Positions 62,101 to 63,509 are shown, counted from the stretch's first letter. The stretch is 64,000 nucleotides of DNA from an uncultured virus (IMG/VR IMGVR_UViG_3300044644_001243) (IMGVR_UViG_3300044644_001243:1-64000), one strand, 5' to 3'. A program made the numbers and translations. Notes: a model not told the origin generated them from the sequence alone.

Positions 62101-62427
62101 ATGAAAAGTTTTATAAAAAAAAGAATTAGAGAACAAATTAGTTTAGATGAAAAAAATTTAAATTATTCTAATGTTTGTAAAAAAATGACTATTAATTCTT
62201 TTGAAGAAGCCTTTAATAATGTTGAAGAAGCCTTAAAAAACGTTGATAGAATAACTAGGTATAAGATTATGCGAAAAATTTATACACCTTTACATAATTT
62301 AAAACATGAGCAAGATTTAATAGCTAATGAAGTTAAAGAAAAAGGTATGTCTGGTGATTCAATTCCAGATGAAGCTGACACATATTGGCACCAAATACAA
62401 AATATATTTTGTAAAGGTATTTACTAA
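62101..62427 (+). CDS. hypothetical protein, possibly head-packaged
   Basis: MKSFIKKRIRE..SLDE N-terminus. Confidence 0.6.
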   Translation: MKSFIKKRIREQISLDEKNLNYSNVCKKMTINSFEEAFNNVEEALKNVDRITRYKIMRKIYTPLHNLKHEQDLIANEVKEKGMSGDSIPDEADTYWHQIQNIFCKGIY

Positions 62428-62452
62428 AAACATTTTTTCACTATATTTATAA

Positions 62453-62527
62453 ATGTGTTAACTCACGTATTGGTCCCGACCAGAAATGGTTTAGAGCTGT
62501 CAAGGCAGCAAAGGTATCGGTACAATA
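62453..62527 (+). ncRNA. candidate structured RNA leader
   Basis: 50% GC over 62461-62520 in an AT-rich genome; gacca-GAAA-tggtt and gctgt-caag-gcagc hairpins enclosed by tattg..ccga / tcgg..caata. Confidence 0.6.
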
Positions 62528-62553
62528 ATAACAAAAATTAAAAGTTAATTAAA

Positions 62554-63423
62554 ATGTATTTAAATTATTCTGCGGCACAATCTGTGCCTACAGCTAATAT
62601 TGCTGTGAACAAATCAAGACTTAAAGTCTACAACAATACGGGCGATATGCCAACGTATTATCTACAAAAGGGACAAGAGTTCCAAATCGAATTATTTAAT
62701 CCAACAACGGATGTTATTCTGGCTAAAATCATACTTAATGGTAATCCTATTTCACAAGGTGGTTTGGTATTGAACCCTGGCCAAAGAGTATTCTTAGACA
62801 GATACTTAGATGTTGCTAAAAAATTCTTATTTGATACTTATGAAGTTTCAAATACTGAAGAAGTTAAAAAAGCAATCGAAAAGAATGGTGATTTCAAAGT
62901 AGAATTCTACAGAGAAAGAGTTCCTAATTACTTAAACACACTAGCAATAAATAGTAATACTGCTAGAGGTTTTGGTGGAACTATAAACAATACAACAATT
63001 GGTGGGTATGCTTCATCTATACCTAACGGTAGCGTTAATATTACAAACACATCTGGTCATATTGGGTCTACTGCGTTATATACTTCTTCAGTTAGTAATA
63101 GTGTACCAACACTTGATTCAATGAATGATATGTTATCAATGGACGCACCAAAAGAAGCTAATCCAACTAGAACGCTAAAGAGTCGTTCTAAGAGCATAGA
63201 AACTGGTAGAGTAGAGCAAGGTTCAGTTTCTGACCAAAAGGTTGTTACAGTGGATAAAAAGTTTGAATACTGGGCTTTTCACACTATTGAATGTAAAATG
63301 TTACCAGTGTCACAAAAAATAAACACAGTTGAAGATATCAATGTAAAAGTATACTGCACAAACTGTGGTGCTAAATTAGGAAAAGGACACAAGTTTTGTG
63401 GTCAATGCGGCACAAAAGCATAA
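62554..63423 (+). CDS. uncharacterised protein with C-terminal zinc ribbon
   Basis: beta-rich N-domain (EFQIELFNP...GGLVL.PGQRVFLDR), low-complexity S/T/N linker, CTNC...CGQC. Confidence 0.8.
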   Translation: MYLNYSAAQSVPTANIAVNKSRLKVYNNTGDMPTYYLQKGQEFQIELFNPTTDVILAKIILNGNPISQGGLVLNPGQRVFLDRYLDVAKKFLFDTYEVSNTEEVKKAIEKNGDFKVEFYRERVPNYLNTLAINSNTARGFGGTINNTTIGGYASSIPNGSVNITNTSGHIGSTALYTSSVSNSVPTLDSMNDMLSMDAPKEANPTRTLKSRSKSIETGRVEQGSVSDQKVVTVDKKFEYWAFHTIECKMLPVSQKINTVEDINVKVYCTNCGAKLGKGHKFCGQCGTKA

Positions 63424-63451
63424 AATAAATTAACGAGTTAACACATAAATT

Positions 63452-63482
63452 AAAACCGAGGATTTGCATCTTCGGTTTTTTT
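63452..63482 (+). terminator. intrinsic terminator
   Basis: aaaaccgaggat-ttgc-atcttcggttttttt (one G-U pair). Confidence 0.85.
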
Positions 63483-63509
63483 ATTGTACATTAGTTAAAA
63501 AATATTGTT

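What the first reader, a model, noticed from the sequence alone, without database searches (positions are those of the whole stretch)
62443..63482. Self-contained unit whose transcript ends pair: promoter, 12-bp arm, structured leader, zinc-ribbon ORF, 12-bp arm, terminator
Seen: atgtgttaactc (62453-62464) starts 2 nt after the late-promoter motif ATATTTAT (62443-62450). Its exact reverse complement gagttaacacat (63435-63446) lies 11 nt after the stop codon and 5 nt before a strong terminator. Inference: the 5' end of the ~1 kb mRNA would pair with its 3' end, closing the leader and ORF into one loop. This resembles rRNA leader/trailer stems or retron a1/a2 arms, but it brackets a protein gene, and no other gene here shows it. 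Possible roles are RNA end protection, processing or circularisation, or an RNP with the encoded zinc-ribbon protein. Alternative: 62454-63445 reads TGTG...CACA with TAAA on both sides, like a small non-autonomous mobile or invertible cassette. TAAA is weak evidence in an AT-rich genome.
Basis: partly seen in the sequence, partly recalled or inferred. Interest (0 to 1): 0.85.

Follow-up and report, generated by a model that had tools for sequence, protein, structure and literature searches.

The report
Phage mRNA with base-paired ends
A one-gene message of a large phage starts and ends with sequences that pair with each other next to a conserved folded leader, and related phages keep this pairing through matching mutations, so it is a real RNA structure that most likely protects or controls the message.

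Summary
ATGTGTTAACTC (62453-62464) and its exact reverse complement (63435-63446) bracket the 289-aa zinc-ribbon ORF 62554-63423, between a promoter-like site and a terminator.

Within this genome alone a 12-nt inverted repeat is not exceptional. Comparison makes it significant. In 65 of 76 non-redundant homologous units the transcript start pairs with the 3' UTR at the same two places. The arm sequences differ (51 distinct arm pairs) and include wholly different 17-23 bp arms in the most distant loci.

Wobble pairs (19 G·U against 1 C·A mismatch) point to RNA pairing on the sense strand. Most exceptions are explained: homing endonuclease genes inserted at the gene's 3' end pushed the original arm about 1 kb downstream.

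The arm abuts a three-way-junction leader, where 17 of 20 predicted pairs show compensatory changes. The leader has no Rfam match and occurs only upstream of this gene.

The mobile-cassette, invertible-segment and retron readings fail. The "late promoter" is the -10 element of a sigma-70-family promoter.

The function is inferred. The most likely role is end protection or stabilisation of the complete message, as in B. subtilis hbs mRNA. Transcript ends are unmapped. This scan has already reported the same architecture on other genomes.

The parts
62420..62450 (+). Promoter-like site: -35-like TTTACT (62420-62425), 16-nt spacer, -10 TATATT (62442-62447, extended TATATTTAT to 62450). The predicted start is about 62453-62455.
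   Evidence: 9 of 12 match. In relatives the same -10 is preceded by TTGACA at about 17 nt; 57 of 65 aligned hexamers are TATATT. The start site is inferred from spacing, not mapped.
62453..62464 (+). 5' arm of the long-range helix P1 (AUGUGUUAACUC).
   Evidence: It pairs with 63435-63446. It is kept by covariation in relatives. It is present in the MFE and centroid fold of the 1030-nt transcript.
62467..62523 (+). Leader three-way junction. P2 is 62467-62477 with 62513-62523. P3 is 62478-62481 with 62488-62491. P4 is 62496-62500 with 62505-62509. The conserved junction strands are UAGA (62492-62495; alignment consensus UUUAGAG spans P3's last bases to P4's first) and AAA (62510-62512; consensus AAAG runs into P2's first base).
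   Evidence: RNAalifold on 74 sequences gives 20 pairs, 17 with both-side changes, and three invariant G·U/U·G pairs. The window's leader alone folds the same way, -20.9 kcal/mol, z -2.2. Model R1 hits here at E 3e-20 and nowhere else in the 128-kb record. There is no Rfam family at E<=10 beyond noise.
62524..62553 (+). Conserved A-rich, unpaired translation initiation region without a Shine-Dalgarno sequence (…AAAAGUUAAUUAAA before AUG).
   Evidence: conserved columns. Only 6 of 127 genes of the record have an SD-like tetramer.
62554..63423 (+). ORF of 289 aa: a split beta-sandwich (residues about 10-125 plus 214-255), a hypervariable low-complexity insert and a C-terminal CxxC…CxxC zinc ribbon. 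Its function is unknown.
   Evidence: PF13240, E 2e-6; AF2 pLDDT 83.7. The family is large: 2536 hits and 2914 cluster representatives. No informative solved fold was found.
63435..63446 (+). 3' arm of P1 (GAGUUAACACAU), 11 nt after the stop codon.
   Evidence: In relatives the arm starts a median of 11 nt after the stop.
63452..63486 (+). Intrinsic-terminator-like hairpin (63452-63479) and T run.
   Evidence: An equivalent GC hairpin plus T run follows the 3' arm in relatives.

Best explanation
The unit 62420-63486 is a single-gene transcription unit. Its mRNA is closed by a 12-bp RNA helix (P1) between its first nucleotides and the 3' UTR just upstream of the terminator hairpin. P1 lies 2 nt from the closing stem (P2) of a conserved three-way-junction leader, so the two helices can stack.

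Shown:
- The complementarity, its fixed position and its maintenance through compensatory and wobble changes in relatives.
- That it follows the ends of the transcription unit rather than the ends of the ORF.
- The covariation-supported leader fold.

Inferred: the transcript starts at about 62453-62455, so its 5' end is fully paired. Only a complete, terminated transcript can form P1. The closed form shields the 5' end and leader from 5'-end-dependent or endonucleolytic decay, giving a stable, well-translated message. Before the 3' arm is made, the 5' arm may sit in a short local hairpin with the linker.

I put about 0.9 on P1 being a real, selected sense-strand RNA helix. I put about 0.45-0.5 on stabilisation or end protection being its main role.
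For: Position and covariation:
- In 65 of 76 units the cognate duplex is -11.9 kcal/mol or better. The median is 12 bp (range 9-23).
- The helix starts a median of 5 nt after the -10 hexamer and ends 0-5 nt before P2. The 3' arm starts a median of 11 nt after the stop.
- There are 51 distinct arm pairs. The most distant loci, L171 and L172, have unrelated 17-23 bp arms (GUAUUGAAAGGUGCCUUU type) at the same places.
- The column-wise test beats shuffles and slides.

Strand: 19 G·U/U·G pairs against one C·A 1x1 mismatch. The leader also has invariant G·U pairs.

Arms track the transcript ends:
- In L021, L048 and L091 a homing endonuclease gene enlarges the unit to about 1.9-2.0 kb, and the arms still bracket the whole unit.
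- Where an endonuclease was inserted at the 3' end, the original arm and terminator lie 0.87-1.2 kb downstream, still complementary with 0-2 substitutions in 6 loci.

Fold: the MFE and centroid structures of the full 1030-nt RNA keep P1.

Local 5' hairpin: mean -2.5 against -0.7 kcal/mol in shuffles, and 28 of 62 distinct sequences are reached by 10 or fewer of 200 shuffles.
Against: - No transcript end is mapped. The only RNA-library data were assembled contigs of relatives. One of them runs through the promoter, so it says nothing about the start.
- In this window the -35 is weak (TTTACT) and no terminator separates the gene from the upstream genes. Read-through transcripts in which the arm is internal are therefore possible.
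- P1 is not universal. It is displaced by endonuclease insertions in 6-7 loci whose genes look intact. It is absent in L050, L082, L173 and L067, and partial in L053.
- Among eight records of very distant huge phages it is detectable in only two (L180, L181), although the leader is found in five at E of 0.002 or better.
- Nothing measures stability or translation.
- In this genome alone the repeat is within chance expectation.
Confidence: 0.5

Rival explanations
1. P1, alone or stacked on P2, is a processing site for a double-strand-specific RNase (RNase III type). It would excise or mature the message from longer transcripts, as with rRNA leader/trailer stems and T7 early mRNAs, or trigger its decay.
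For: P1 (median 12 bp) lies 0-5 nt from the roughly 10-bp P2, so a stacked helix of about 22 bp is geometrically possible. L171 and L172 have 17-23 bp arms. In this window there is no upstream terminator and the -35 is weak, so a precursor is plausible.
Against: In most relatives the complementarity begins at the predicted start of a unit with its own strong promoter. In about ten loci a terminator hairpin overlaps the -35, so the unit is insulated. P1 alone is shorter than typical RNase III substrates (recalled knowledge). No RNase III gene is in the 128-kb record, which is only 38% complete.
Confidence: 0.2
2. The closed end helix plus the three-way junction is a binding platform for a protein. 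The protein could be the encoded zinc-ribbon protein (autoregulation) or a host or phage factor that sets translation or timing. A variant is hok-like storage of an inert closed message that is activated by 3' trimming.
For: The leader has invariant G·U pairs and invariant junction strands, beyond what pairing alone needs. Leader and gene are strictly linked: 82 model hits on 84 loci, one per gene plus two degenerate duplicates, and none elsewhere. The leader is more widely conserved than P1. The 5' arm can also pair locally just downstream, like the hok tac element (PMC9841398, passages read).
Against: There is no evidence that the protein binds RNA; its fold is a generic beta-sandwich with a terminal zinc ribbon. 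The initiation region is unpaired in the consensus structure. Arm-to-initiation-region pairing shows no cognate signal, -3.9 against -3.8 kcal/mol.
Confidence: 0.2
3. The arms act on DNA: as terminal inverted repeats of a small mobile or invertible cassette, or as paired operator sites for a DNA-binding protein.
For: The arms are inverted repeats with a palindromic core (GTTAAC) and TAAA on both sides in this window. Inverted repeats bound by one protein could also change together.
Against: The gene is always in the same order and orientation: 68 of 68 contexts with the upstream marker and 51 of 51 with the downstream marker. No empty site or second copy was found. No resolvase or reverse transcriptase is in the record. 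The flanks next to the arms are further complementary in relatives, not direct repeats. G·U is tolerated 19 times against one C·A, which a DNA site would not distinguish. The arms follow the transcript ends when the unit is enlarged.
Confidence: 0.03

Closest known systems
B. subtilis hbs mRNA 5'/3'-UTR long-range interaction (Braun, Durand and Condon 2017, PMC5737220; abstract and section 16 read)
   Same: A perfectly complementary stretch of similar size (14 nt, -19 kcal/mol, against 12 nt, -17.4 kcal/mol here) joins the 5' UTR to the 3' UTR just upstream of the terminator of a short monocistronic message with a structured leader. In hbs it restrains endonuclease cleavage in the leader.
   Different: There is no sequence relation. 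In hbs the 5' element lies inside the leader downstream of two hairpins, not at the extreme 5' end. hbs support comes from mutagenesis in one species; here it comes from covariation across many phages with no experiment. The host here is probably SD-less, so hbs's ribosome/SD protection logic need not apply.
hok mRNA tac/fbi fold-back of the hok/Sok type I toxin-antitoxin system (as summarised in PMC9841398; passages read)
   Same: The extreme 5' end pairs with the 3' end of the full-length mRNA. The 5' element can alternatively pair with a region immediately downstream in the nascent transcript.
   Different: hok encodes a roughly 50-aa toxin with an overlapping mok frame, an antisense Sok RNA and SD sequestration. 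Here the ORF is 289 aa, no antisense RNA is evident and the initiation region is unpaired.
S. aureus icaR mRNA 3'-UTR/5'-UTR pairing (PMC3868564; search listing and start of abstract seen)
   Same: A bacterial-type mRNA whose 3' UTR base-pairs with its own 5' UTR.
   Different: As recalled, icaR's 3' UTR pairs with the Shine-Dalgarno region to block translation and invite RNase III. Here the partner is the 5' terminus, and pairing with the initiation region showed no signal.
rRNA leader/trailer stems and phage T7 RNase III sites (recalled knowledge)
   Same: A long-range helix encloses a whole functional RNA.
   Different: Those helices are 20 bp or longer and lie within longer precursors. This one is 9-23 bp (12 bp here), encloses a protein-coding message and begins at the predicted transcription start.

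Membership tests
hbs-type 5'/3'-UTR long-range interaction (functional class) | Complementary stretch in the 5' UTR and in the 3' UTR just upstream of the terminator of the same mRNA | tested here: met
   12 of 12 nt, 62453-62464 with 63435-63446, 5 nt before the terminator hairpin; -17.4 kcal/mol.
hbs-type 5'/3'-UTR long-range interaction (functional class) | Pairing shown to matter (compensatory changes restore it) | tested here: met
   Natural compensatory changes: 51 distinct arm pairs, 65 of 76 units paired, tests against shuffles and slides. No mutagenesis was done.
hbs-type 5'/3'-UTR long-range interaction (functional class) | Pairing modulates ribonuclease cleavage or mRNA stability | not testable with these tools
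   Needs half-life and cleavage mapping in mutants.
hok/Sok-type fold-back mRNA (type I toxin-antitoxin) | 5' end pairs with 3' end of the full-length mRNA | tested here: met
hok/Sok-type fold-back mRNA (type I toxin-antitoxin) | Alternative local pairing of the 5' element in the nascent RNA | tested here: inconclusive
   Local hairpin mean -2.5 against -0.7 kcal/mol; 28 of 62 sequences are reached by 10 or fewer of 200 shuffles.
hok/Sok-type fold-back mRNA (type I toxin-antitoxin) | Small toxic peptide ORF with an overlapping leader ORF and an antisense RNA | tested here: not met
   The ORF is 289 aa, a conserved beta-sandwich protein. No antisense element was found beyond chance-level promoter-like sites.
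RNase III processing stem (rRNA / T7 type) | Double helix of about 20 bp or more | tested here: inconclusive
   P1 is 12 bp here, with a median of 12 and a range of 9-23. About 22 bp is reached only if P1 stacks on P2.
RNase III processing stem (rRNA / T7 type) | Lies within a longer precursor transcript | tested here: inconclusive
   The window has no upstream terminator and a weak -35. Many relatives have a strong promoter, and about ten have a terminator overlapping it.
Retron (a1/a2 arms around msr-msd) | Adjacent reverse transcriptase gene | tested here: not met
   No RVT_1 match in the 128-kb record. The neighbours have no such domain.
TIR-bounded mobile or invertible cassette | Variable location, empty sites or inverted orientation among relatives | tested here: not met
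   Same order and strand in 68 of 68 and 51 of 51 contexts. One leader copy per genome or locus.
TIR-bounded mobile or invertible cassette | Cognate recombinase or transposase | tested here: not met
   No resolvase match. The record is only 38% complete, so absence is weak evidence.
Any Rfam 15 family | Covariance-model match to the leader or 3' UTR | tested here: not met
   Only noise-level hits, E 1.1-9.3, all far below the gathering scores.

The most novel reading that the evidence does not exclude
The closed-end helix and the three-way-junction leader form a licensing device specific to this message. Only a completely transcribed and terminated RNA folds into the closed form. That form is what a phage or host factor recognises, either to exempt the message from the RNA decay that large phages impose during infection or to time its translation. 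Opening it, for example by 3' trimming, would switch the message to the other state. This would be a phage-wide, hok-like conformational timer on an ordinary structural or accessory gene. The leader alone is conserved from roughly 130-kb freshwater phages to 460-735-kb megaphages.
Probability: 0.15. Interest if true: 0.85.

Novelty: new variant of a known kind. Interest (0 to 1): 0.7.

Why it matters
End-to-end pairing of a bacterial-type mRNA is known experimentally from very few cases, such as hbs and hok. Here the same design is supported by dozens of independent compensatory changes. The protein family has thousands of members in large and huge phages, and the design comes with a leader fold that is in no RNA family library.

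If the helix controls decay or translation, it gives a natural, evolution-validated model for how 5'-3' communication stabilises prokaryotic messages. It would also be a portable module (promoter, arm, leader, ORF, arm, terminator) for testing and perhaps engineering mRNA stability in hosts that lack Shine-Dalgarno sequences. It also marks this gene as under unusual expression control although its function is unknown.

Tried and rejected
- Chance: rejected by comparison, although the repeat is unremarkable in the single genome.
- 3' or 5' arm pairing with the translation initiation region (icaR-like): cognate -3.9 and -4.8 against non-cognate -3.8 and -4.5 kcal/mol, so no signal. There is only a hint in L171/L172.
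- Rfam: no family. tRNA/tmRNA: none in the window.
- Expression evidence: four public runs hold only 5-9% of the sampled words, as assembled contigs of relatives. They cannot show starts, ends or strand, and one contig includes the promoter. No conclusion is drawn.
- Protein function:
  - Pfam gives only the zinc ribbon. PHROGs gives nothing useful.
  - The first AF2 model from 22 sequences was poor, pLDDT 45.
  - The second, from 150 sequences, was good. It found no PDB match at E of 1e-3 or better and only generic Ig-like/MSP sandwiches at Z of 6.4 or less.
  - The protein atlas returned only its own family.
- The count of structure pairs on the 1672-column alignment: my structure string had the wrong length. 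I computed the same counts and controls in a script instead.
- Mobile cassette, invertible segment, retron: see the membership tests.
- Literature: two full-text searches for a phage mRNA with paired ends or for this leader motif found nothing relevant. A third, broader search returned only the icaR and other non-phage papers. Subscription journals are not covered.

Full report
**What is in the window.**

The stated coordinates are exact.
- ATATTTAT lies at 62443-62450.
- The 5' arm ATGTGTTAACTC lies at 62453-62464.
- The ORF runs 62554-63423 (289 aa).
- The reverse-complement arm lies at 63435-63446, 11 nt after the stop codon.
- A terminator-like hairpin with a T run follows at 63452-63479.
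- The repeat finder extends the pair to 19 nt at 84% complementarity.

The window is the first half of a 128,170-bp virus record (30% GC, estimated 38% complete). The record encodes a DNA polymerase, a helicase, tail-fibre-like proteins and many unknowns.

**Is it more than chance?**

Not in this genome alone. The record holds 111 exact 12-mer inverted pairs spaced 200-2000 nt apart. In a crude comparison of upstream and downstream segments for 157 genes, this gene ranks 8th. The case therefore rests on comparison with relatives.

**Relatives.**

The protein family is large.
- The word-indexed search gave 2536 hits.
- The exhaustive search gave 2914 50%-cluster representatives at E of 0.001 or better.
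- Many hits lie on contigs of 200-360 kb.

Three scans of viral contigs gave 173 loci. Of these, 79 are non-redundant with both flanks present. I aligned the window plus 75 of them (A3). I dropped four:
- L001, which is identical to the window.
- L021, L067 and L091, where an inserted gene separates the leader from the ORF. These three are treated separately below.

**The end-to-end helix (P1).**

- In 65 of 76 units the best duplex between the segment after the -10 element and the first 40 nt after the stop is -11.9 kcal/mol or stronger, and it lies at the same two places.
- Cognate duplexes have a median of -16.3 kcal/mol against -8.4 for non-cognate combinations.
- The helix has a median of 12 bp (range 9-23).
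- It starts a median of 5 nt after the -10 hexamer (39 of 65 at 5-6 nt) and ends 0-5 nt (median 2) before the leader's closing stem.
- Its 3' strand starts a median of 11 nt after the stop codon.
- There are 51 distinct arm pairs. Examples are UGUGUUAACUC, UUACGUUAACUC, UGCGUUAACU, AUAUAGUUAACUA, AUCGUGAUUGA, AACGUGAUUAAACUA and GUUAACCCGUGUA.
- The most distant viral-contig loci, L171 and L172, have unrelated arms of the GUAUUGAAAGGUGCCUUU type, at -27 and -25 kcal/mol.

I also ran a column-wise test on the unsupervised MAFFT alignment. All 76 rows were kept, including those without an adjacent arm.
- 83% of cells are standard pairs against 72% in shuffles (0 of 500 reach the observed value).
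- 97 cells are changed on both sides against 35.5 in shuffles (0 of 500).
- 12 of 15 pairs show such double changes, but 31 of 500 shuffles reach that count, so this measure is weak.
- Sliding the 3' partner by 1-3 columns leaves only 25-43% of cells paired.

These counts came from my own script. My structure string for the count of structure pairs had the wrong length.

**RNA or DNA, and which strand?**

Within the predicted helices there are 19 G·U/U·G pairs but only one C·A 1x1 mismatch. On the opposite strand, or for a DNA site, these two would be equivalent. The asymmetry therefore points to pairing in the sense-strand RNA.

One caveat applies: the duplex predictor itself favours G·U. The minimum-free-energy and centroid folds of the 1030-nt predicted transcript both keep P1 and the terminator hairpin.

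**The arms follow the transcript, not the ORF.**

In L021, L048 and L091 a GIY-YIG/NUMOD homing endonuclease gene sits in the 5' part of the unit, with a duplicated N-terminal piece. The unit is then about 1.9-2.0 kb, and the arms still bracket all of it at -13.5 to -17.5 kcal/mol. L067 has none.

Conversely, six of the 11 rows that lack an adjacent 3' arm (L009, L015, L031, L044, L081, L085) carry an antisense LAGLIDADG or GIY-YIG gene right after the ORF. The complement of their 5' arm lies 0.87-1.2 kb downstream, with 0-2 substitutions.
- In L015 that arm sits next to a stranded stub of the original C-terminus and the original terminator.
- L035 is doubtful.
- L050, L082 and L173 have no arm.
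- L053 has a partial arm of 7 bp.

These invaded genes end at a new terminator. Their messages presumably lack P1, which argues that P1 is not strictly essential, at least over short evolutionary time.

**The leader.**

RNAalifold on 74 leaders predicts a three-way junction.
- P2 is the closing stem, and P3 and P4 are hairpins. There are 20 pairs in all.
- 17 of the 20 pairs show both-side changes.
- Three G·U/U·G pairs never vary, and the junction strands (UUUAGAG, AAAG) are conserved.
- The window's leader alone folds the same way, at -20.9 kcal/mol and z -2.2.

A covariance model (R1) gave the following results:
- It finds one copy in the 128-kb record, at 62454-62555 with E 3e-20.
- It gives 82 hits on 84 loci. 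Each gene has one hit just upstream, and L021 and L048 each have a second, degenerate duplicate. There are no hits elsewhere or on the other strand.

Rfam 15 has no match beyond noise.

**Out-of-sample huge phages.**

tblastn found 30-39% identical homologues in Lak megaphages and in 460-735-kb uncultured phages. R1 was not trained on them. Its hits were:

| Locus | Record | E-value |
|---|---|---|
| L180 | LR756500 | 5e-9 |
| L175 | LR756504 | 7e-9 |
| L182 | LR756501 | 3e-6 |
| L179 | LR756508 | 2e-4 |
| L181 | LR745206 | 2e-3 |
| L177, L178 | Lak-C1, Lak-A1 | 0.07 |
| L176 | Lak-B5 | 2.7 |

End pairing is detectable in only two of the eight records: L180 (z -3.9) and L181 (z -2.5, an 8-bp GC-rich helix next to the terminator). 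It is not detectable in L175, the three Lak records, L179, or the 735-kb phage, where the next gene starts 10 nt after the stop. The leader is therefore older or more widespread than P1.

**Promoter and host.**

In most relatives the -10 TATATT(TAT) is preceded at about 17 nt by TTGACA. This is a sigma-70-family promoter, not a demonstrated late promoter. It also fits the Bacteroidota TTTG/TAnnTTTG pattern that I recall. In this window the -35 is only TTTACT and lies in the end of the upstream gene.

Only 6 of 127 genes in the record have an SD-like tetramer, and positions -10 to -13 are A-rich. As I recall, this is typical of Bacteroidota hosts. The start site at about 62453-62455 is inferred from spacing only.

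**Protein.**

With 150 diverse sequences, AF2 gives pLDDT 83.7.
- The core is a beta-sandwich built from residues about 10-125 and 214-255.
- It is interrupted by a low-confidence, hypervariable N/S/T/G-rich insert.
- It ends in a zinc ribbon (PF13240).

No solved structure matches at E of 1e-3 or better. The best VIA Z is 6.4, to generic MSP/Ig-like sandwiches.

In BFVD the top hit is a phage homologue ending in a SHOCT domain (7e-22). It is followed by uncharacterised proteins of giant viruses, iridoviruses, nudiviruses and white spot syndrome virus (2e-9 and weaker). The protein's function remains unknown.

**Mechanism.**

The shown facts are the helix, its position, its covariation and its linkage to transcript ends and to the leader.

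The most economical inference is that the complete message closes on itself. It would then have no single-stranded 5' end and a shielded leader, which would slow 5'-end-dependent or endonucleolytic decay.

The nearest experimental precedent is B. subtilis hbs mRNA. There a 14-nt 5'/3'-UTR pairing just upstream of the terminator restrains RNase Y cleavage, and compensatory mutants restore it (PMC5737220; abstract and section 16 read).

The spacing of about 11 nt after the stop would keep the 3' arm just outside a terminating ribosome. This rests on my recalled knowledge of ribosome footprints.

A short local hairpin between the left half of the 5' arm and the linker is moderately supported. It recalls the metastable pairing of the hok tac element (PMC9841398; passages read).

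The rival readings are an RNase III-type processing site, a protein-binding or autoregulatory platform, and a DNA-level element. They are weighed in their own sections. The DNA-level and mobile readings are essentially excluded.

**Earlier notes of this scan.**

A look-up by sequence showed that the scan has reported the same architecture at least five times on other genomes. It has also reported twice the homing-endonuclease replacement of this gene's C-terminus.

I took the hbs paper as a lead from those notes and read it myself. All counts given here come from my own calls on this window and on independently fetched loci.

**Limits.**

- No transcript end is mapped. The sequencing runs available held only assembled contigs of relatives.
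- The relatives are related to one another, so shuffle-based figures are not probabilities.
- The duplex predictions choose the best pairing in a window, which favours finding some helix. The non-cognate and slide controls address this.
- The literature searches cover only open-access full text.

Noticed in passing
L009, L015, L031, L044, L081, L085 (3' end); L021, L048, L067, L091 (5' part): The zinc-ribbon gene is a hot spot for homing endonucleases. Antisense LAGLIDADG (L015) or GIY-YIG (L081) genes sit directly after the ORF. They leave a stranded stub of the original C-terminus plus the original 3' arm and terminator about 1 kb downstream. GIY-YIG/NUMOD genes are inserted near codon 19-40 with a duplicated N-terminal piece and a degenerate second leader.
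   Followed up: partly
Upstream of the -10 in relatives, e.g. L058, L060, L062, L069, L070, L090, L157; L003, L005, L008, L017, L019: Two kinds of hairpin are embedded in the promoter. In about ten loci a GC-rich terminator-like hairpin (-10 to -16 kcal/mol) plus a T run holds the -35 TTGACA in its loop or stem. In the main clade the -35 (TTGACAAA) is repeated inverted (TTTGTCA) just before the -10. The window's own lineage has neither.
   Followed up: no
window 62101-62427 and 62420-62425: In this lineage the usual 'TTTCAATAAAA…TTGACA' upstream element is replaced by the 3' end of the variable small gene 62101-62427, leaving only TTTACT as the -35. L002 has a 99% identical zinc-ribbon protein yet keeps the canonical TTGACA.
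   Followed up: no
window 62554-63423 (protein): The predicted fold is a beta-sandwich split by a disordered insert. It matches uncharacterised proteins of giant viruses, iridoviruses (including one named immediate-early ICP-18), nudiviruses, baculoviruses and white spot syndrome virus in BFVD at E 2e-9 to 1e-3. One phage homologue carries a SHOCT domain in place of the zinc ribbon.
   Followed up: no
L085:2345-2400: A hairpin-forming insertion of about 45 nt (TTTCAGAAAC…GTAAATAATTTCTGAAAC) lies between the 5' arm and the leader's closing stem. The leader is otherwise intact.
   Followed up: no
Downstream of the terminator in many loci (e.g. L023, L025, L028, L034, L061): A recurrent 'GTATATTTG(C/T)A' follows the T run. 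It resembles the Bacteroidota TAnnTTTG promoter element (recalled) and presumably drives the next gene. The window has TTATTGTACATT at the same place.
   Followed up: no
L180 (LR756500.1), 5' region about 483-510 and the 3' UTR: The 5' region has two adjacent segments, TGTTAAGG and TCTCACTTTG. Their complements in the 3' UTR (CCTTAACA … CAAAGTGAGA) stand in the same order rather than the nested order. The two helices therefore cannot both form without crossing, so they are either a pseudoknot or alternatives.
   Followed up: no
G000:C1 126147-126506 (- strand) and neighbours: The upstream and downstream regions of this small gene carry near-identical terminator-like hairpins (ATTATCC(C)CTAC…GTAGGG). 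This gives a strong but probably trivial up/down complementarity of -23 kcal/mol.
   Followed up: no
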